Shown: positions 7,790 to 59,719, counted from the first letter of the whole stretch. The stretch is 63,084 bases of DNA, filler included, from Rozella allomycis CSF55 (GCA_000442015.1; 7 parts of 7 records of this genome joined end to end with filler, not necessarily neighbours in it); one strand, 5' to 3'. Program-made: numbers and translations. The notes: generated by a model not told the origin, from the letters alone.

Positions 7790-8910
7790 TTATCTTTTTT
7801 CATTTGCAAGGGGTATTGATTTAGGCGTTTGAAGGGTAATTTGCGAATAACTATACAACAATCCAGATAGAAATGCTAATTTTCAACTACAAGTAAATTT
7901 ACCTAGTAAAATAGAAAATACACCGCCATTATTAACTTCTTTTTCACTCTTCATAAATAGCATGCCTGATATCGCAACAGGCAACTTATTCAAGGCTCCA
8001 ACCATCGAGTAAGTGGTCGATGCAGTAACTCGCAATGCCCATGCAGTAGAATAACCTTTGTTTAAATACAATGATCGCTACTGATTGCATATGCAGAAAT
8101 GCTACTCAGAATTATCCCCGCCGCTAATTTATCTTTCATTTCTACATATTCTCCATCACCAAAACTGTAAAAACAATTTATAACCTTTACTAGTCTTGCA
8201 TAAACTCATTCCAATTTTCAGTCATCAGAGATAAGAACATAAAAATCGGTGTAGATATTAAATTGTTGTAATACACTGTATCAAAATCTCTGAAATCTAC
8301 ATTTTTTATCTTCTTTTTCATATATAGAACGTAACCAGCAGATGTTAAACAATTTAGCATCATCCATGCAAATCCTCTTGCATTGAATGAAATGTCATTG
8401 TATCCACCAATAATTGAACTTAATACCTATAAATTGGTTTTAATATCAATACCATTAGTGAAAACGAAAATGCCATCAACTTTGTAATTGATCTACCAAA
8501 CATTCTCTGTTCCCCAATAGCCACCAAAATTATAGTCAAATTTTTAAAAATAGTAAACATTGATATTTTCAAGTACTGTATACTAATTACCTTGTAAAAA
8601 TCGTTTTACCTTTTACTCCCAGTGTATATCATTAAAACAAGCATTAATGAAACGGGATACCATTGAATCAAATTCCGCCTTTCCACTTGCCTAAATTTCA
8701 CCCATCCTATCGATCGGCAAAACAGCAGCAAGCAAACACAAATTAAGCTCTATCACCTAAATTGTTTCATTTTACCTGGCAGCCCAGAAGAAAAAAGTTC
8801 AGGTTAAATTTATGAACGGACAACACATATTTGTTAGTTAAAGTCATCATTATCGAAGACATACAATAGGAAAGCAATGCGGCCACAGCTTCCATGCTAT
8901 AGCCTTTCAT
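7790..8910 (-). CDS. VRG4: GDP-mannose transporter (Vrg4/GONST type), 6 short introns
   Basis: [43 protein letters not shown] (GALNK motif). Confidence 0.9.
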
Positions 8911-13096: not shown

Positions 13097-13915
13097 ATGA
13101 TGGTTGATCTTCAGCATTGTACAAATCCATTCAAATGCACGGCTTCACAAAGTCTTGTGTGCGATTATCAGCGAGCCATCAATTATCTGAGCTGTTTCCA
13201 TTCCTCCATCGATAATGCTTATCCAAAGATCGACTCCGACGAACAAAATGGGAAGAAGTCTAAGCAATCAGTGAAGAAACATCGAAAGAAACCAAATATA
13301 AACAGGTTTCACATCAAAAGCTTCTCCGATGTAATGATGCTGAAATGCAAAATAACCAAATGCAAGATAAATACATCCCCATGGAGGACTATTCTTGTAC
13401 CTGATACATTTACTTTTGGACAATTGCATGAATTGCTGATCATTTTGTTTGACTGGGATCCCGATATTAACCATAGGTTTCTTCATGGAGACGACCGAAA
13501 TTCAAAGGCACCCAGTAATAACGAGATCACGAATGATGAAGATCAATCTAAAATAAAGGAACATTTCATTCGCAACAATGTGATGTTTTATGAAATTGAT
13601 GAAAGTAGGGTCAACGTTCTAATCAAGTTGGAAAACAGTAGCATACCAGCCGAACAGGGTGTATTCTACCCAATTGTTTTGAGAGGAAAAGGTGTGATGA
13701 ATTTCGACAATAATGAATATGAAAGTGGCAGAAAAAGTCACAACATGAATCGAATGGATAAGAATAAATTGAATGGTCGAATTAGAAAGCGATTTGGAAA
13801 AAGATATATAAAAACTATATCGGATGATGAAAATGAAGATTCTGAGAATGAGACTGAGATGGATCAATGTTATGAATACTTTGATGTGGATGCATTCATT
13901 AATGATAAAAAATAA
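13097..13915 (+). CDS. Protein with a plasmid pRiA4b ORF-3 (MM3350-like) domain; intronless
   Basis: PWRTILVPDTFTFGQLHELLIILFDWDPDINHRF ... YPIVLRGKG match the family pattern as recalled. Confidence 0.65.
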   Translation: MMVDLQHCTNPFKCTASQSLVCDYQRAINYLSCFHSSIDNAYPKIDSDEQNGKKSKQSVKKHRKKPNINRFHIKSFSDVMMLKCKITKCKINTSPWRTILVPDTFTFGQLHELLIILFDWDPDINHRFLHGDDRNSKAPSNNEITNDEDQSKIKEHFIRNNVMFYEIDESRVNVLIKLENSSIPAEQGVFYPIVLRGKGVMNFDNNEYESGRKSHNMNRMDKNKLNGRIRKRFGKRYIKTISDDENEDSENETEMDQCYEYFDVDAFINDKK

Positions 13916-14473: not shown

Positions 14474-16732
14474 TGTGAACTCCATGGACATTCGCAGGAT
14501 GTAATATGACTAAAATAGCTGTTATAGATTAAAGCAATATCAGCAGTCAAAGACGTTATATTAACAGCTTCAAGAGATAAGTCGGTTATTTCATGGGACA
14601 TAAGAAACAAGCAGCCATATAAATGCTTTAAAGGACATTCAAATTATGTAAATAGCTTAGCGGTTGTAAATCATGCCGATTTCGGTGGTATAATTTATTT
14701 ATCTTTGTGATAGACTTAATTTTAAGTGGTGGAAGTGATAAAATAGTATACGGTTATTCTGTGGAAGGGATGGAAGAAGAGCCTATAATAACTCTGGTTG
14801 GACATGAGAGTAATGTTTGTTCTATTGATGTTTCAATTAACGGATTAATTGTGACTGGATCGTGGGATAAGTAAGGAACAATAGCAATTTATATTGTAGA
14901 ACAGCCAAAGTATGGAAAGATTTTGTATGTGTAGCGACATTGAAAGGTCATGAACAAGCTGTGTGGGCCGTTAAATTCTACAAGAGTGATATCATTACTG
15001 GTAAATACAAGTTTCAAAGATTATAGCGTCTGCTGATAAAACTATAAAGATTTGGAGAGATGGGAACTGTGTAAGAACAATGACAGGCCATAAGGACTGT
15101 GTTAGAGGATTGGCTATTGATCATAATGGGAATTTGATTTCATGTGGAAATGATGGATTGATATTAGTTTGGGATATTTCAAGTGGAGAAGTTTTGAGAG
15201 AATTATCAGGCCATAATTCTTTTATTTACTCGATTGCTGTTTGTGAAGGAGGTGAATTGGTGTCTGTAGGTGAAGATAGAAGTATAAAGATTTGGTCTGG
15301 TAACTTTCTTTATATGATTACATAAAGATTACGAATGTGTTCAATCAATTGCATATCCAGCATTATCTATTTGGTGTGTTTATCCATTGGAAAATGGAGA
15401 TTTCATCGTTGGTGGAAGTGATTGTATTGCCAGGGTATTTACAAAGTCTATTGAAAGAATTGGCGATGAAGAATTAATAAAAGGATTTGATGAAAAGGTT
15501 TCAAACACCCAATTGCCATCCAACATGATTGGTGATGTGAATAAAGAAAAACTTCAAGGAAAAGAAGGATTAGCAGAAGGAGGAAATAAAATTGGCCAAG
15601 TTAAAATGATCAAAAACGGAAACAACGTTGAAGCCTATCAATGGGATGGAAATGATTGGATTAAAGTTGGAGACGTTGTGGACGCCGTTGGCTCAAACAG
15701 AAAACAACTCTTCAATGGAAAGGAATACGATTATGTTTTTGACGTTGATATTGCTGATGGTGTTGTTTTAAAACTTCCATTCAATGCAAACGAAAATCCC
15801 TACATGGCTGCGCAAAAGTTTATTGAAGACAATGATTTGAGTCAATCGTATCTAGACCAAGTTGCTGATTTCATAATAAAAAATACAAATGGAATTTCCT
15901 TTGATTCCCAAAATTACTCAAACGATCCCCTCACTGGAGGATCAAGGTACATTCCTGGACCACCAAATTCATACAATTCAACTACAACAGTTAAGAAACA
16001 ATTTTCAGCGTCAAAACAATTAAACTTTTTTGAATCTGCAAATTTAGATGGAATCAAAAAGAAAATTCAACAATTCAATTCTGAATTCCTTCATTTAACG
16101 ACAAACGAAGAAAATCAACTTTCTGAAATTTACGAAATGATTGAAAAGAAAAATGCATCAGAATTTAATCAATTCGAATTAATTTATAAGTTTCTCGCTT
16201 TAGATCCTTCAAAAATATTTCCAATAATTGATTTACTCCGATTATTGGCATACTACAATGCAAATATCCCCACTGAAATATATGAAGATGTTTTTGACAT
16301 TGCAAACAGTTCTGACATAAACAGAATGCTGTCTTTAAGGCTAATTGTTAATTCCTTTAAAGGTGACTTATGGACCAATTTCCTTCCTCATGCCAAAAAG
16401 ATAATTTGCTTTTCCCAATCAACGTCAAACAATAATTTAAATCAAGCTATATCCTTTACACTTTTAAAGTAAGATTTTTCACATGATGTTATAAAAGTTA
16501 TTCCATCAATGGCTCTGTTATTCACGCTCCAATGCTACTAGATATTCTTAAATTTATAATCAATACTTTTCAAGTGAACGAAGATTTATTTGTAAATTGT
16601 CTGCAATCTTTGGGCACTCTTATCGATAGAAGGATGGTTGACCGCACAGTTTTAAATGACATAAACTTGTCTAGGATAAGCACTACTTCTAAGATTCAAG
16701 AATTAATATCAGAAATAAAGTTACTTTCGTAA
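14453..16732 (+). CDS. DOA1: Doa1/Ufd3/PLAA (WD40-PFU-PUL), 6 short introns
   Basis: YKLSCELHGHSQD, WD40 repeats, PFU motif GKEYDYVFDVDI..LKLPFNANENPY.AAQKF, DPLTGGSRY. Confidence 0.93.
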
Positions 16733-25316: not shown

Positions 25317-25416
25317 NNNNNNNNNNNNNNNNNNNNNNNNNNNNNNNNNNNNNNNNNNNNTTAATTAATTAANNNNNNNNNNNNNNNNNNNNNNNNNNNN
25401 NNNNNNNNNNNNNNNN
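25317..25416. other. Scaffolding gap with TTAATTAATTAA linker (same at about 48418, 54256, 58110, 59720, 61607)
   Basis: N-run, TTAATTAATTAA (stop in all six frames), N-run, repeated identically. Confidence 0.95.
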
Positions 25417-33463: not shown

Positions 33464-33754
33464 TTACCCCCATGCTACGGTAATGCAATAATTTATTACA
33501 AGTATTCCTTCTGAGCTGAAACATTTGTATAGATTTCGTAGTGATTCATCAGGTGCTGGCGCAAACGCGCTATTGACGTATAAAAATAGATTATTTCCTC
33601 CTTCAGAACCCAGCTTCAATTGCTTGCGAAGAAAATCGCTTAAAGAGGCGACATCTTGATTGGCATCTACCATGAACTTGTTCTGTTTCAAGATCGGAGT
33701 ACTTCCAACAGCCTTAAACAAGACTACAAATTTATGAACGTCACTCGACATCAT
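33464..33754 (-). CDS. ATG12: Autophagy ubiquitin-like protein Atg12
   Basis: FKAVGSTPILKQ, FLRKQLK, LFLYVNSAFAPAPDE, C-terminal AWG. Confidence 0.95.
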   Translation of the reverse strand: MMSSDVHKFVVLFKAVGSTPILKQNKFMVDANQDVASLSDFLRKQLKLGSEGGNNLFLYVNSAFAPAPDESLRNLYKCFSSEGILVINYCITVAWG

Positions 33755-33852
33755 TACGATATTCCTTTAGCTTTAAAAATTTGGCTTTGGTTTATCGAAA
33801 TTCTATTTTTGGCGTCATTANATTTTTGGTGTCATTAAAACGACTCAGCCAC

Positions 33853-39473: not shown

Positions 39474-40988
39474 TTAGCAGACCTTTTGATCTACTCTAGA
39501 ATCTGCCAGCAACATTTTGACAACATCTGCATGACCGTTACGGGAAGCCCATCGAATAGCATAATTGTCATCCGCACTTGGATCTACTCTAGAATCTACC
39601 AGCAACATTTTGACAATATCTGCATGACCGTTATAGGAAGCGCATCGAATAGCAAAGTTGTCATCCGCACTTGGATCTACTCTAGAATCTGCCAGCAACA
39701 TTTTGACAATATCTGCATGACCGTCAAGGGAAGCCCATCGAATGACATAATTGTCATCCGCACTTGGATCTACTCTAGAATCTGCCAGCAACATTTTGAC
39801 AACATCTGCATGACCTTTACGGGAAGCCCAGCGAATAGCATAATTGTCATCCGCACTTGGATCTACTCTATAATCTGCCAGCAACATTTTGACAACATCT
39901 GCATGACCTTTACGGGAAGCCCAGCGAATAGCATAATTGTCATCCGCACTTGGATCTACTCTATAATCTGCCAGCAACATTTTGACAACATCTGCATGAC
40001 CTTTACGGGAAGCCCAGCGAATAGCATAATTGTCATCCGCACTTGGATCTACTCTATAATCTGCCAGCAACATTTTGACAACATCTGCATGACCTTTACG
40101 GGAAGCCCAGCGAATAGCATAATTGTCATCCGCACTTGGATCTACTCTATAATCTGCAAGCAACATTTTGACAACATCTGCATGACCGTTATGGGAAGCC
40201 CAGCAAATAGCATAATTGTCATCGGCTCCTGGATCTACCGTAGAGTTTGCAAGCAAAATTTTAACAATTCCTTTCCGCACGCTATGAGCATTAGAAAAAT
40301 TAAAATTGCCATCAGCATTCGAGTTTGTGTATACGGAAGAAGAAGGTTGAAAACCATTCTCAAAAAGGACAATATTTTGGATTGCATGCATAAGGTCGAA
40401 TTGGCATGAAAATTGAAACGCATAGTTAGCAGCNACATGACCGTTATGGGAAGCCCCGCGAATAGCATAATTGTCATTGGCACCTGGATCTATCGTAGAG
40501 TTTGCAAGCAAAATTTTAACAATTCCTGTCCGGCCGTTATGAGCAATAGCAAAATTAAAATTGCCATCAGCCTTCGAGTTTGTGTATACGGAAGGAGAAG
40601 GTTGATAACCATTCTCAAAACTGACAATATTTTGGATGGCATGCATAAGGTCGAATTGGCATGAAAATTGAAACGCATAGTTAGCAGCTTTTTGAGGCAT
40701 GTTCTTTTGTTTTAGACAATGCAGAAAAAATACGAACCTTTCTCTTTGTTCGTTGTGCATAAGAATATTCCAGCACGAATGTATGGCTAATACTTTCCCG
40801 CACCTCTGCTTGATTAGATATTGAAGTACATAAGGGCATTTCCATGAACAACTTAATTCAGGGGTTTGATGAAGGATGAAGTCGAAGCAAACTGAGCGAA
40901 GCCATATCGAAGTTCTGGAGACTTGTTTCAAATCATCCAGAGTTAAGTGCGACAAAATAAACAGCCAAACCTCGTGTGGAAAATTCAT
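39474..40988 (-). CDS. F-box plus ankyrin-repeat protein; intronless; contains a duplicated haplotype overlap at N40434
   Basis: N-terminal F-box FPHEVWLFILSHLTLDDLKQVSRTS; about 8 repeats of DPSADDNYAIRWASxxGHADVVKMLLADxRV. Confidence 0.9.
   Translation of the reverse strand: MNFPHEVWLFILSHLTLDDLKQVSRTSIWLRSVCFDFILHQTPELSCSWKCPYVLQYLIKQRCGKVLAIHSCWNILMHNEQRERFVFFLHCLKQKNMPQKAANYAFQFSCQFDLMHAIQNIVSFENGYQPSPSVYTNSKADGNFNFAIAHNGRTGIVKILLANSTIDPGANDNYAIRGASHNGHXAANYAFQFSCQFDLMHAIQNIVLFENGFQPSSSVYTNSNADGNFNFSNAHSVRKGIVKILLANSTVDPGADDNYAICWASHNGHADVVKMLLADYRVDPSADDNYAIRWASRKGHADVVKMLLADYRVDPSADDNYAIRWASRKGHADVVKMLLADYRVDPSADDNYAIRWASRKGHADVVKMLLADYRVDPSADDNYAIRWASRKGHADVVKMLLADSRVDPSADDNYVIRWASLDGHADIVKMLLADSRVDPSADDNFAIRCASYNGHADIVKMLLVDSRVDPSADDNYAIRWASRNGHADVVKMLLADSRVDQKVC
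39486..40260. repeat. 102-bp tandem coding repeat (34-aa ankyrin units), about 7.5 copies, several near-identical
   Basis: Period 102; gcaacattttgacaa and cgcacttggatctactcta recur each unit. Confidence 0.95.
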
Positions 40989-41151
40989 ATGAAGTGGTCA
41001 CTGGTCAGTGGCTGAAAATACAACCTCAGAAACCTCATCATATTGAGGTCCATCCTTTACTGTTTTATTTATTGAGCAAAATGCGAAAATTTTGGTTTCC
41101 GTTTATTAAAGACTAAAAACAATAAACAAATACATATACTGACCTATTTAT

Positions 41152-43204
41152 TTACTCACTCGCTTCTGAAAATGAAATCTCCAATTCTTGCTGATCCAAA
41201 TCTTTTTTCAAGCTGCTTATCCCAGATATTTCTTCAAGGATACCTGGATTGTTGAAAATCCTTTCTAAAAATCCAATATTGTCGGATTTAAATTCATTTA
41301 TGATTTTTTCGGAGCAGGCAACGCATTCATTGAATCTTGGCGAAGAAGTTTTTATAAATTCGTAGGTAGAAAGAAATCCTCTGATCTGCTGATATGCGGT
41401 CCCTAAAGTATCTTGGGTGGAATTCGAAACTGATTCCCCAATACTAGTGTCAATTAAAGCATTTCTATACTTGGCCAAGTTTGATTGAACATATGATGTT
41501 AATAATTCTACCGCAGTTCCTGACGCAATCATTGAAATCCCAGGGCGAGTGACTGTGCATTGTTGATCCAGTGTCCTTTTTTGTAAAGACTTTAAACAAA
41601 GGCTTGTATTGTTTACGTTCGTGGGAGCTATTACATCCTGACAGAAGTAACAAGAATTGTTATATTCACGCAAACCATGTCGGATTACTAAGAAGGAATC
41701 AAATCCTATAGCAACACTGATGACAATCTACATTTAGCAAAAATTCGTTGTGTACTTTATTATATAGCCTGCCTAGTAGAGTCGGTAGCCATCTTGACTC
41801 TCTACTATCTGTAAGTAAAAAAATAACATCATGTAAGCTTATCACTTCCATTAACTCAGCCAAATCATTTTTAAAACTAGCTGGATCTCCGATGGAATGA
41901 CCCGGCATGGGTACTGACATCACCATACCTTTACAATCCACATTGGGGTAGATATCTTTTAATCTCTGAGCTGCAACTTCAGCTTTATATTGTCCTCCAT
42001 TTTTACAATCATCAAAAACAAACAATGATTGCCGAACAGGATTAGAAGGTGAGACTACTCCATTGTCAATAAATGTTATGCATTTTATATTCCAGCCCTA
42101 TAGTATTAATATTACAAAATTACAAGTAAGCATCTAGCTACATTGCATCCCAAAGTACCAGCACCAACTAGAAGACATCTCAATGAAGATATCTTTTCCA
42201 AGTCAAGATCCGGTGCTGTCTTCCACTTCATTAATTTTGTATTAAGGTCAACGGCAGTTTCAGCAAGCCAAATAAATAAATTACAAAACATATTACTGGT
42301 CATCGTTCATGAGGTGTCCTAAACTTGTGATATTTGAAGAAAATTGAACACTGAGGCCAATATTCTCAACGTTGGGGACAAGATTTGCTCGAGTTTTAAT
42401 AACCACATTTTTAGATTTTTGAATTCTAAAAATGAGTGCAGTTATGCTTCTGGCTTTATACTTTTGCATTAACATTAATAGTATATTGTGACAATTTTGA
42501 TCGATGTTATTCCCAGTGGTTGAGTCTTTAATGATAAAATACTTAATATGAGCGCATACATTGATTACTGTTTCTTTTGAGCATTCATTCAATTTGCTGA
42601 TTCTCACAAAGCTGTTTGCGATAACAGCCACAGCTTGCAAACCATGATCATTCATGTATGAATAAGCATCGTCAATATTTAAGTAGTCTAAAAGCGTAAA
42701 ATCTATCCGTTGAAACTCCAGATTAAGATCGCCATGAGTAAGGAGGATATGTCCTGTGGTATAATGAAACTTATATTTCTTCAGATCAGCATATGAAACA
42801 AGGAAAAAATTACAGAAATCACCAATTTCAATTTTTTCCCAATGATTATTCGCCAGCATTTCTTTATACACTTCTAATTGTGTCTTAATATATTTGCGAT
42901 AGTCAAAATCGGCATAGTCTTCAAGTGTGTTTTGGTTCATGAGAAGCCCCTGAATCATGCAAAATTGAAGATTAAGGCATTCGTTTTTGAAACATTCGAC
43001 TATAGACGTGGGAGCTTGATGGTCCCGTCCTTGGCAAATTGCTAGAATAGGACGAGCTTTATCATCTAGTTTGAAAACATCTTTCTTTAAATCAACTAGT
43101 CTGAACCAAAAATTTACATCAACTATTGATTTAAACAATTGAAGTTGGACTTTGGTTTCATTCACTTCGATCGCCTTGGCTGTCATTGAAGGCAAATTTT
43201 CCAT
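41152..43204 (-). CDS. ATG7: Autophagy E1-like enzyme Atg7; about 4 short introns, one of them GT-TG
   Basis: [57 protein letters not shown]. Confidence 0.95.
42269..42296 (-). other. Non-canonical 28-nt GT-TG intron in ATG7
   Basis: gtaatatgttttgtaatttatttatttg has no AG; removal gives [14 protein letters not shown]. Confidence 0.75.
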
Positions 43205-43247
43205 GTTTTAAGCTTTAGAACAAAATTCGATTATTAATTTATATTTA

Positions 43248-44453
43248 TTAAATGTTAATCAAAATACGAATGGCAAAAAGAGATTTTGCCAAATTGAAAA
43301 CACTGTCGGCTAAATTTGGCTTGATATCTAACTTTACTTCAACAGGGAAGTGGTCACTGATTCTTGAAATGTCTGCGAGATCTAATTTAAGTTTTTCGCA
43401 AGCATTGTCAGGATGCCAAGGTTTCTTCGTGGATGTTTCAGAGGAGTATATATCACAAGGATAGTAGTATGGTTTAGCGCTATTAGGCACAACAAGTCTC
43501 ATGGCACTAGTTGAGGCAATTATTCTGTCAAAAGCGCAACAGGTGGAAATACTTGTGGTTGTATCTACGGACGTTTCAATCAACCAATGAAGTCTAGTGT
43601 CATGATAAAGTAGCACAGTAAAATTTGAATGATTTACAGTATTGTCATCGCTTCTCTTCTGTTTTACCCTTCTTTTCTTAGGCCTCTCTGAAGCTTCGTC
43701 ATCTCCTGAATATCCGTGATCGTCTTCGTCATAACCAATTGGTGCATGAGCTAAATTCTTTGGTTTCCTGCGAGATCTTCTTTTGGCACGCGAACTTTCA
43801 GAATCTGTAAATACTCCTTCATCTTCAGTGCTGCTGGAATCAGATTTGGGTAAGTGCCAATGTTTCTTTCTAACGTATTGGCAATCAGCGTTGAGGTCTC
43901 CCATGATCATAATGTTAGATTCACCCCACCTTTGTAACACCTCATCATAGACATATTTTAATGAATTAATTTCAAATATAGCTGCCGCTGGTTTCGCATG
44001 CAACCCTATAAATACTACCTTTTCATGACCAAAGCTCATCAATACACAAAATGGCGGCCTTTCAAAGTTTCTTGCCGCTATTCCATCGTATTGCCATTGA
44101 TCTATAAGTACAGCCCTGTCCTTTCTATAAAAATATACGTATTGCTCTTTGGATGAACTTTTCCCGAGATGATCACTAGCAACTAATTCATATCCAGCGG
44201 AAGTCAAGTTATTCACCATTGACAGTAATCTCGATGGGGTACTACCACTAATGTCTCTAATTTCTTGAGCCAAGAACACATCGTATCTTGTTATTATGGT
44301 GGATATTGTCGATGTCACTAAAGAGTCATTAAGCTTTGTCACACCGAAAACATTTAAATTCATAGCACCAAAAGTGAACTCATAACCCGAAGAATGCTGT
44401 ACAAATGCAAGCAGTAGCAACCCTAGCAGTAAAACCAATGTTTGAATTGACAT
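43248..44453 (-). CDS. Secreted DNase I-family endonuclease with a charged insertion; intronless
   Basis: Signal peptide; NLNVFG, QEIRD, KEQYVYFYR, FERPPF, GLHAKP, MGDLNADC, CAFDRII, ISDHFPVEV. Confidence 0.92.
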   Translation of the reverse strand: MSIQTLVLLLGLLLLAFVQHSSGYEFTFGAMNLNVFGVTKLNDSLVTSTISTIITRYDVFLAQEIRDISGSTPSRLLSMVNNLTSAGYELVASDHLGKSSSKEQYVYFYRKDRAVLIDQWQYDGIAARNFERPPFCVLMSFGHEKVVFIGLHAKPAAAIFEINSLKYVYDEVLQRWGESNIMIMGDLNADCQYVRKKHWHLPKSDSSSTEDEGVFTDSESSRAKRRSRRKPKNLAHAPIGYDEDDHGYSGDDEASERPKKRRVKQKRSDDNTVNHSNFTVLLYHDTRLHWLIETSVDTTTSISTCCAFDRIIASTSAMRLVVPNSAKPYYYPCDIYSSETSTKKPWHPDNACEKLKLDLADISRISDHFPVEVKLDIKPNLADSVFNLAKSLFAIRILINI

Positions 44454-44611
44454 TACTATACGTGGCTGAAAAAGTCAATAAAAACACGTGCTTTGAATGG
44501 CTAAAATCAAAACATAAGAATGGAAATAAAAATATTTACATTATTGCGTTTACATGAATCCTACGGTGAATAACTTTTGGAGTTGACAAAGCCACATTTG
44601 TCCAGGGGTTA

Positions 44612-48417: not shown

Positions 48418-48517
48418 NNNNNNNNNNNNNNNNNNNNNNNNNNNNNNNNNNNNNNNNNNNNTTAATTAATTAANNNNNNNNNNNNNNNNNNNNNNNNNNN
48501 NNNNNNNNNNNNNNNNN

Positions 48518-54053: not shown

Positions 54054-54355
54054 TTTATAGAGTTAGTAGGTCCAAAGCATTATGAGGAACGTCGAGTCTG
54101 AATTTAGGTCAATGTCAAAAAATTGAACCAATAAATTTGTTTTATTCATTCAAATTGTCCTTCGTAATCAAATATTTTTTAAATACATCAATTTTAAAGA
54201 TTTAAATGTCAAAAATGTTGAAGCTAAATATAAATAGCCAAGTCTAGAACTTCCTNNNNNNNNNNNNNNNNNNNNNNNNNNNNNNNNNNNNNNNNNNNNT
54301 TAATTAATTAANNNNNNNNNNNNNNNNNNNNNNNNNNNNNNNNNNNNNNNNNNNN

Positions 54356-58261: not shown

Positions 58262-59719
<1,458 letters not shown>

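What the first reader, a model, noticed from the sequence alone, without database searches (positions are those of the whole stretch)
42269..42296. GT-TG spliceosomal intron in ATG7, one of three non-AG acceptors in conserved genes
Seen: between MNDD-ca and [16 protein letters not shown] lies gtaatatgttttgtaatttatttatttg (28 nt), with an in-frame TAA, a frameshift and no AG. GT...TG excision restores the conserved Atg7 M-D-x-x-x-L-A-E-x-x-V-D-L-N spacing. Established: U2 introns almost always end in AG, and TG acceptors are known mainly as rare alternative sites. Inference: three such cases among roughly 110-120 hand-spliced introns, all at modal length and all in otherwise intact genes, suggest a spliceosome that places the 3' site by distance and tolerates UG.
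Basis: partly seen in the sequence, partly recalled or inferred. Interest (0 to 1): 0.9.

Follow-up and report, generated by a model that had tools for sequence, protein, structure and literature searches.

The report
Tiny Rozella introns ending in TG
A 28-base intron in the autophagy gene ATG7 of the fungal parasite Rozella really ends in TG instead of the near-universal AG, and a second conserved gene nearby does the same, so this organism's splicing machinery may accept TG, though no RNA data were available to prove it.

Summary
On the minus strand, 42296..42269 is a 28-nt stretch, GTAAT...ATTTG, between ATG7 exon 1 and exon 2. It carries an in-frame TAA, shifts the frame and contains no AG. 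Removing exactly these 28 nt gives a gap-free match to 9 of 9 ATG7 homologues. No GT-AG alternative keeps the conserved [15 protein letters not shown] block.

The T at -2 is not an error. DNA contigs of four runs from four studies all carry it. One of them is a diverged haplotype with 26 substitutions in the gene.

I found a second, cleaner case at 59285..59310 (+). It is a 26-nt GTAAT...TTTTG intron in an alanine aminotransferase gene, where the two reading frames do not overlap, so only RNA removal can join them.

The public gene models fail at both sites. An intact ATG12 gene, whose product ATG7 activates, lies 8.5 kb away.

No RNA evidence exists, so splicing at UG is inferred, not shown. 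Best reading (about 0.6): these are genuine ultra-short U2-type introns whose only usable 3' site is UG. Main rival (about 0.27): they are splice-dead or leaky alleles. This would be a new variant of a known kind.

The parts
42297..43204 (-). ATG7 exon 1: ATG at 43204, 302 codons plus the first two bases (CA) of a split codon; the N-terminal domain
   Evidence: Pfam ATG7_N at 9.2e-27. Matches Atg7 N-terminal domain chains in the PDB.
42269..42296 (-). 28-nt GT..TG intron, phase 2: GTAATATGTTTTGTAATTTATTTATTTG. In-frame TAA at 42294..42292, no AG inside.
   Evidence: Gap-free register with 9 of 9 homologues after removal. Top PWM score, 7.6. T at -2 (plus-strand A at 42270) unchanged in contigs of runs X1, X2, X3 and X6.
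42124..42268 (-). ATG7 exon 2: G completing CAG (Gln), then [16 protein letters not shown]...[14 protein letters not shown]
   Evidence: ThiF at 6.4e-07. Yeast Atg7 alignment.
42098..42123 (-). Intron 2: 26-nt GT-AG, GTAATTTTGTAATATTAATACTATAG
   Evidence: Proteins of other organisms read into an intron at the same position (P0181, P0183).
41756..42097 (-). ATG7 exon 3: [13 protein letters not shown]...RLYNK
   Evidence: ThiF at 8e-17.
41728..41755 (-). Intron 3: 28-nt GT-AG, GTACACAACGAATTTTTGCTAAATGTAG
41152..41727 (-). ATG7 exon 4, with the catalytic-Cys motif [12 protein letters not shown] and the CYFC and CVAC pairs; stop TAA at 41154..41152
   Evidence: 33-41% identity to 9 homologues, with all 18 invariant columns kept.
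59285..59310 (+). Second GT..TG intron: 26 nt, phase 2, GTAATCAATTATATTGAATATTTTTG, in an alanine aminotransferase gene. It joins ...KKVLRS to [19 protein letters not shown]...
   Evidence: The upstream frame closes at TAA 59286..59288. The downstream frame opens only after TGA 59309..59311. PDB sequences run on without a gap: 3ihj 260-297 then 298-331, and 3tcm 262-299 then 300-334. The next AGs give 45 or 54 nt, which is the wrong frame.
33464..33766 (-). Intact ATG12 gene, ending ...VAWG then stop. ATG12 is the ubiquitin-like protein that ATG7 activates; listed here as context.
   Evidence: Pfam APG12 at 2.2e-32, profile positions 1-87 of 87.

Best explanation
The 28-nt stretch is a genuine ultra-short U2-type spliceosomal intron of the ATG7 gene of Rozella allomycis. 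The organism is named by the tool for the public protein of this locus. The intron's canonical AG has become UG, most simply by A>T at -2, which turns ...TTATTAG into ...TTATTTG.

In this genome introns are 26-29 nt long, and a yTrAy-like branch motif sits only about 6-12 nt from the 3' end. After branching, the 3' end is therefore held close to the catalytic centre, and the site is fixed mainly by distance. A UG keeps the terminal G. Preceded by a U-run and with no AG competing nearby, it is accepted for exon ligation, probably less efficiently than AG. The product is an mRNA for a full 656-aa Atg7.

The same applies to the 26-nt GT..TG intron in the alanine aminotransferase gene.

Shown: the DNA sequence, its presence in independent DNA data, the homology register, the lack of any GT-AG solution, and the second case. 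Inferred: that splicing occurs at UG, and how.
For: 1. Intron anatomy. It has a GTAAT donor and a 28-nt length on the window's mode: 58 of 183 GTA..AG frame-joining candidates fall at 26-29 nt, against 12 of 173 for ..TG ends. Its PWM score of 7.6 exceeds all 58 training introns.

2. Register. Removal restores a gap-free fit to 9 of 9 homologues.

3. No canonical solution. The nearest downstream AGs end at 42226, 42220 and 42216. They give 71, 77 and 81 nt, and all delete [15 protein letters not shown].

4. Real DNA. Contigs of X1 (depth 5.85), X2 (324), X3 (374) and X6 (55) cross the site unspliced with no change at 42270. Every A>T change tallied per run lies elsewhere.

5. Age of the TG. 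X6 is a diverged haplotype with 26 substitutions. Its differences at 42268 and 42300 bracket the intron, so the TG predates the haplotype split. The 42268 change makes CAG into CAA, which is synonymous under the GT-TG junction. X6 has 0 indels in the coding parts but 2 in the flanks (codon calls made by hand).

6. Second case. 59285..59310 (+) is GT..TG and 26 nt, and PDB sequences are contiguous across it. There the frames do not overlap, so only RNA removal can join them.

7. Intact partners. The catalytic motifs downstream are kept, and an intact ATG12 gene lies in the same window.

8. Conserved position. A relative's ORF (P0181/P0185) loses homology exactly at ...IYR|LSESAVDLN. It has R where this gene has W (TGG), as expected if that organism has AG at the same intron position. 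This is inferred from protein only.

9. Literature. TG is the commonest single-base acceptor variant with RNA support in Drosophila (Table 3 passage).
Against: - No RNA evidence of any kind was available.
- In humans, TG is 'never the sole 3' splice site'. It needs an AG within 28 nt, and AG>TG mutants activate neighbouring AGs rather than the TG (abstract and section 12 of PMC2374985). Here the nearest downstream AG is 43 nt away.
- Between haplotypes I count 18 non-synonymous against 8 synonymous base changes. That is not distinguishable from neutral drift.
- Only 5 of the 26 changes lie downstream of the intron.
- Both public gene models avoid these junctions, so the annotators evidently had no transcript support for them either.
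Confidence: 0.6

Rival explanations
1. Splice-dead or leaky allele. The AG>TG change abolishes or nearly abolishes correct splicing. Transcripts keep the intron, giving a 303-aa N-terminal fragment that ends at the TAA, or they use the AG 43 nt downstream, giving a 71-nt intron and a frameshift. On this reading ATG7, and likewise the aminotransferase, is a young unitary pseudogene or a strongly down-tuned gene in a reduced obligate parasite.
For: Human AG>TG mutants are not spliced at TG. The ratio of 18 non-synonymous to 8 synonymous changes between haplotypes is compatible with neutrality (hand count). No RNA junction is known. The public models do not use the junction.
Against: - Two conserved genes within 17 kb each carry exactly one lesion, of the same kind (A>T at -2), with no stop, frameshift or indel anywhere else.
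- The TG predates a haplotype split, yet both haplotypes keep the frame: 0 indels in the coding sequence against 2 in the flanks.
- All catalytic motifs are intact.
- ATG12 is intact nearby.
- Random decay would give a mix of lesion types.
Confidence: 0.27
2. No splicing. The ribosome shifts +1 at CAG-TAA and reads the insert as NMFCNLFIW, a 9-aa insertion. Alternatively, ATG7 is made as two separate polypeptides, with the C-terminal one starting at the ATG at 42304.
For: The downstream frame is open back through the insert, as [16 protein letters not shown], and holds two ATGs.
Against: None of 9 homologues has any insertion at this point. The insert looks like an intron in donor, length and composition. 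In the aminotransferase case the two frames do not overlap, since TAA at 59286 closes one and TGA at 59309 precedes the other. Frameshifting cannot work there, and one mechanism for both cases is simpler.
Confidence: 0.04
3. Sequencing or assembly error, or a rare variant of the assembled sample: the true base at -2 is A.
For: The window is a draft with many single Ns and N-runs. One of the DNA runs may be the assembly's own source.
Against: Four runs from four studies show the T, at contig depths of 5.85 to 374, and one of them is a clearly different haplotype. No contig carries an alternative base. Contigs can, however, drop rare variants.
Confidence: 0.02

Closest known systems
TG-AG tandem acceptors of human U2-type introns (Szafranski et al. 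2007, PMC2374985; abstract and section 12 read)
   Same: GT donor, TG as the 3' terminal dinucleotide, pyrimidine at -3, U2-type context.
   Different: In humans TG is only ever an alternative to an AG within 28 nt, and is 'never the sole 3' splice site'. Here no AG lies in the intron, and the next one downstream is 43 nt away in ATG7 and 19 nt away but out of frame in the aminotransferase. The TG would therefore have to be the only productive site.
Annotated GT-TG introns of Drosophila (FlyBase 'Rule-Benders', PMC4528330; Table 3 passage read) and of Ganoderma lingzhi (PMC11590231; Table 1 passage read)
   Same: GT-TG is the most frequent or among the most frequent single-base acceptor variants, and has RNA-seq support in those species.
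   Different: In Drosophila, 22 of 23 have a similar alternative splice nearby. Frequencies are about 0.02-0.03% of introns, against 2 in roughly 60-120 introns here. There is no RNA support here.
Ultra-short introns of Rozellomycota and Microsporidia (Whelan et al. 2019, PMC6349667; passages read)
   Same: That paper notes two putative ~30-nt introns with premature stops in the R. allomycis S23 gene. This is the same size class as the 26-29 nt mode seen here.
   Different: The passages I read say nothing about non-AG ends. Short microsporidian introns are reported there as poorly spliced (<20%), which bears on the leaky-allele rival.
Yeast introns with a short branch-to-3' distance (recalled, not from any call)
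   Same: As I recall, second-step factors Slu7 and Prp18 become dispensable when the 3' site lies within about 7-12 nt of the branch. That would be positioning by proximity.
   Different: Recalled only. Yeast still requires AG, and UG mutants are, as I recall, strongly impaired in the second step.

Membership tests
U2-type (GT-AG) spliceosomal intron | 5' GT with the genome's donor consensus (GTAA/GTAT) | tested here: met
   GTAATA. The donor PWM came from 58 introns of this window.
U2-type (GT-AG) spliceosomal intron | Length within the genome's intron length distribution | tested here: met
   28 nt. The mode is 26-29 nt.
U2-type (GT-AG) spliceosomal intron | Branch-site-like motif shortly upstream of the 3' end | tested here: inconclusive
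   TGTAAT lies 12 nt from the end, judged by eye. No branch model was built.
U2-type (GT-AG) spliceosomal intron | 3' terminal AG | tested here: not met
   It ends in TG in the window and in four DNA runs.
U2-type (GT-AG) spliceosomal intron | Absent from mature mRNA | not testable with these tools
TG-AG tandem alternative acceptor (Szafranski type) | Partner AG acceptor within 28 nt of the TG | tested here: not met
   There is no AG inside the intron, and the next downstream AG ends 43 nt away.
U12-type intron | Extended 5' motif (RTATCCTT) and TCCTTAAC-like branch site (motifs recalled) | tested here: not met
   The 5' end is GTAATATG, and no such branch motif is present.
ATG7 (E1-like enzyme of autophagy) | ATG7_N domain plus ThiF adenylation domain, with the GxGxxG motif and catalytic Cys | tested here: met
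   Pfam hits. GAGTLGC and [10 protein letters not shown] are present, and 18 of 18 invariant columns are kept.
Programmed +1 ribosomal frameshift | Overlapping frames whose read-through product fits the family | tested here: not met
   The frames overlap in ATG7, but the 9-aa insert is absent from 9 of 9 homologues. In the aminotransferase case the frames do not overlap at all.

The most novel reading that the evidence does not exclude
Rozella allomycis uses UG as a constitutive, sole 3' splice site in about 1-3% of its ultra-short introns. That is roughly a hundred times the rate printed for other fungi and animals. The reason would be that, in 26-29-nt introns, the second catalytic step picks the 3' site by its distance from the branch rather than by recognising AG. 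This would be a natural system in which the 'AG rule' of the major spliceosome is relaxed. It would also mean that public gene models of this lineage are systematically broken at such sites.
Probability: 0.5. Interest if true: 0.75.

Novelty: new variant of a known kind. Interest (0 to 1): 0.6.

Why it matters
TG acceptors are documented, but only as rare partners of a nearby AG. Two sole TG acceptors in conserved, otherwise intact genes within 63 kb would make Rozella a natural test case for how the spliceosome chooses the 3' site when the branch-to-3' distance is minimal. It sits at the base of the Microsporidia lineage, whose splicing machinery is reduced.

There is also a practical consequence. 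The public ATG7 model (545 aa) invents a 343-nt intron that deletes 105 residues. The public aminotransferase model (284 aa) stops inside the TG intron and so loses the PLP-lysine half of the enzyme. Gene inventories of this reference genome, which are used in many studies of fungal origins, may therefore under-call genes at such sites.

Tried and rejected
**RNA evidence.** No RNA holder was listed by the look-up of sequencing runs. A search for longer proteins with exon 1 found only the public model P0001 (1 hit of 1466 candidates). A search with an aminotransferase exon found only P0061 at 100% identity. No transcript-derived full-length form is therefore on record. The exon-1 ORF itself is not in the protein collection.

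- No whole genome is held, so there is no genome-wide acceptor tally and no check of U2AF1, Prp8, Slu7, Prp18 or the snRNAs.
- The Python machine was lost. All later gene-structure work and the codon classification of the X6 differences were done by hand.

**Relatives.** The metagenome scan kept 80 loci, the best at 45% identity, so none is a close relative. Their intron positions were not examined.

**Search for further non-AG introns.** In the list, every entry I checked by eye other than the two TG introns was spurious:
- 24025 and 35816 lie inside open frames, as do 36699, 46927 and 59649.
- At 7875 a 27-nt AG intron fits.
- 55166 and 28656 lie upstream of start codons.
- 53596, 38259, 21233 and 31946 are antisense to the coding strand.
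- 33441 lies after the ATG12 stop.

- Junctions between long same-strand ORFs at 13915, 17297, 31214, 36956, 12323, 27999 and 52517 were intergenic, GT-AG, or assembly duplications around an N.
- An ALDH 'GT-TG' case that I wrote into note 2 was my own wrong back-translation. The real sequence is a 29-nt GT-AG intron, corrected in note 3.
- Pattern scans for GTAA..TTG and GTAT..TTG gave chance-level counts: 84 against 79.5 expected, and 78 against 68.

**Other readings rejected.** A TA-bounded excised element (ciliate-type IES) does not fit, because no TA pair at a frame-restoring distance flanks the insert (by eye). Rfam found only a tRNA-Gly in the window.

**Literature.**
- 'Rozella' with 'Atg7': 0 papers.
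- 'Rozella', 'short introns' and 'splice': 1 paper.
- 'Rozella' with splice-site and non-canonical terms: no paper holding 'Rozella' among the 10 listed.
I therefore found nothing in print on non-AG introns in Rozella. The original genome paper was not read, and supplements were closed.

Full report
**What is there**

The window is AT-rich, with GC mostly 0.28-0.42. It uses the standard genetic code and is packed with genes broken by very short introns.

On the minus strand, 43204..41152 encodes ATG7:
- Exon 1 (43204..42297, 302 codons plus CA) matches Pfam ATG7_N at 9.2e-27.
- The next two exons match ThiF.
- The last exon carries [12 protein letters not shown] and the CYFC and CVAC pairs.

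Introns 2 (42123..42098, 26 nt) and 3 (41755..41728, 28 nt) are ordinary GT-AG introns.

Between exon 1 and exon 2 lies GTAATATGTTTTGTAATTTATTTATTTG (42296..42269, 28 nt). Reading through it gives ...HLMNDDQ*YVL*. It contains no AG.

**Is the junction right?**

Homology to solved yeast Atg7 in the downstream frame begins at (W)LAE. In an alignment with nine full-length homologues, all nine show M/I, four residues, then L/I-A..., without any gap. Removing the 28 nt gives [15 protein letters not shown] in the same register.

Only GT..TG, or the one-base-shifted TA..GG, gives that mRNA.

Every GT-AG alternative fails:
- The nearest downstream AGs end at 42226, 42220 and 42216. They give 71, 77 and 81 nt, none in frame with the native donor.
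- All three remove [15 protein letters not shown], whose columns are nearly invariant.

The public model of this gene is P0001, 545 aa, named by the tool as a Rozella allomycis CSF55 protein. It reads ...[18 protein letters not shown].... That model uses a donor at 42568 and the AG at 42226. The result is a 343-nt 'intron' in a genome whose introns are 26-29 nt, and it deletes 105 residues. The correct product would be 656 aa.

**Is it intron-like beyond chance?**

Before the script machine was lost, I scanned for GT-start segments that join two open frames.
- For GTA..AG, 58 of 183 candidates fall at 26-29 nt (17, 17, 14, 10).
- For ..TG ends, only 12 of 173 do.
- A position matrix built from 58 GT-AG introns scores the ATG7 stretch at 7.6, ignoring the last two bases. 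The training median is 4.5 and the maximum 7.1. It is the best of all non-AG candidates.

**Is the T real?**

Fourteen runs were listed, none of them an RNA holder. I laid X1, X2, X3 and X6, which come from four studies and carry two organism labels, on 41000..43400.
- All are DNA: contigs cross all three introns and there are no joints.
- Long contigs cover the site: X1 at depth 5.85, X2 at 324, X3 at 374, X6 at 55.
- No run shows a change at 42270. The per-run tallies of A>T changes are fully accounted for by other positions.

One of these runs may be the assembly's own source. X6, however, is clearly a different haplotype, with 26 substitutions, all inside ATG7 exons. Two of them, at 42268 and 42300, bracket the intron, so the TG is older than the haplotype split.

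Classifying the 26 changes by hand gives:
- 8 synonymous changes, including 42268, where CAG becomes CAA under the GT-TG junction.
- 18 non-synonymous base changes in 16 codons.

That ratio cannot be told apart from neutrality. X6 also has no indel in the coding parts but two in the flanks, at 41064 and 43259. This mildly favours frame preservation.

**A second case**

While checking the scan's other candidates by eye, I found that the alanine aminotransferase gene on the plus strand has the same feature. The sequence reads ...AAG AAG GTT TTG AGA TC|GTAATCAATTATATTGAATATTTTTG|A ATG GGC TCG....

- The upstream frame closes at TAA 59286..59288.
- The downstream frame opens only after TGA 59309..59311.
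- The frames therefore do not overlap, and only removal from the RNA can join them.
- The 26-nt excision (59285..59310) is the only one with a GT donor.
- The next AGs give 45 or 54 nt, which is the wrong frame.

Two solved alanine aminotransferases align without a gap across the junction: 3ihj at 260-297 then 298-331, and 3tcm at 262-299 then 300-334.

The public model P0061 (284 aa) ends ...KKVLRS. It reads into this intron's TAA and loses the half of the enzyme with the SxSKG lysine.

**Other candidates**

All other candidates that I examined were spurious or canonical. The list is in Tried and rejected. It includes one of my own errors, an ALDH intron that is in fact GT-AG.

My scan missed short exons and unusual donors.

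**Context**

- An intact ATG12 gene lies at 33766..33464. It matches Pfam APG12 at 2.2e-32 over the full profile and ends in Gly. The conjugation pathway that needs ATG7 is therefore still encoded.
- Small ORFs of another organism (P0181, P0185) lose ATG7 homology exactly at ...IYR|LSESAVDLN and again at ...ARCLM|. These are the two boundaries of this gene's exon 2.
- Those ORFs have R where this gene has W (TGG). That is what an AG at the same intron end would give. The inference rests on protein only, because the DNA could not be fetched.

**Compared with what is known**

- In humans, TG acceptors were found in 36 genes. They are 'never the sole 3' splice site', always lie within 28 nt of an AG, and AG>TG mutants activate neighbouring AGs instead of the TG (PMC2374985, abstract and section 12).
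- FlyBase lists 23 GT-TG introns, 22 of them with a similar alternative splice (Table 3 passage).
- Ganoderma has 22 among about 92,100 introns (Table 1 passage).
- All minor non-canonical pairs together make up 0.257% in fungi (Table 1 passage).
- Short (~30 nt) putative introns in R. allomycis have been noted in print (passage).
- I found nothing in print on non-AG ends in Rozella. The genome paper was not read and supplements were closed.

At the Ganoderma rate, about 120 introns would hold 0.03 GT-TG cases. By my arithmetic, seeing two has a Poisson probability of about 4 in 10,000.

**Verdict**

- The best reading (0.6) is a real intron whose only productive 3' site is UG. It would be tolerated because, in such short introns, the site is set by distance from the branch.
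- The main rival (0.27) is that these are splice-dead or leaky alleles. Against it stand two identical, isolated lesions in otherwise intact conserved genes and the age of the ATG7 TG. For it stand the human data and the lack of detectable purifying selection between haplotypes.
- Frameshifting (0.04) and sequence error (0.02) are unlikely.

One RNA experiment would settle the question.

Noticed in passing
window 42226-42568 (-): The public gene model of ATG7 (P0001, 545 aa) bridges the TG intron with a 343-nt GT-AG 'intron'. This deletes 91 residues of the N-terminal domain plus [14 protein letters not shown]. It is an annotation artefact under every reading.
   Followed up: yes
window 59283-59288 (+): The public alanine aminotransferase model (P0061, 284 aa) ends at ...KKVLRS, inside the second TG intron. 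The downstream exons, which carry the PLP-lysine motif, are left out of the model.
   Followed up: yes
window 33464-33766 (-): Intact single-exon ATG12 gene (Pfam APG12 at 2.2e-32), 8.5 kb from ATG7.
   Followed up: yes
window 41000-43400: The population is polymorphic. X6 carries a haplotype with 26 substitutions, all inside ATG7 exons 41957-42812. X2 and X3 hold minor contigs, at about a third of the depth, that share some of these changes (42548-42653, 41957) but not others, which points to recombinant haplotypes. The 3' flank (41000-41153) has a minor form with 9 substitutions and deletions of 4 and 6 nt.
   Followed up: partly
window 17297, 27999, 52517 and the paired 44-N runs (e.g. 25317-25416, 48418-48517, 54256-54355): Single Ns sit inside short local duplications, where repeated 20-30-nt strings flank the N. 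Pairs of 44-N runs separated by 12 bases recur eight times. These look like draft-assembly or masking artefacts that break ORFs.
   Followed up: partly
window 16210-16236 (-): GTAAATCAATTATTGGAAATATTTTTG resembles the aminotransferase TG intron (GTAATCAATTATATTGAATATTTTTG), but it lies antisense to a 384-codon ORF. This is probably coincidence.
   Followed up: no
window 39474-40997 (-): Long ORF for an F-box-like N-terminus followed by near-identical ankyrin-type repeats (...ADVVKMLLADYRVDPSADDNYAIRWASRKGH..., several copies), with an N inside.
   Followed up: no
P0062 and P0065: Aminotransferase ORFs of relatives. P0062 (74% identical) breaks off at the position of Rozella's intron 58997-59025. 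P0065 (71% identical) ends at ...ARKVLKE, the position of the TG intron. The intron positions may therefore be shared with relatives. The DNA could not be fetched.
   Followed up: no
window 43248-44474 (-): Intronless 408-codon ORF with a signal-peptide-like start and an Exo_endo_phos domain (5.8e-08), looking like a secreted DNase-I-like nuclease. It lies directly upstream of ATG7.
   Followed up: no
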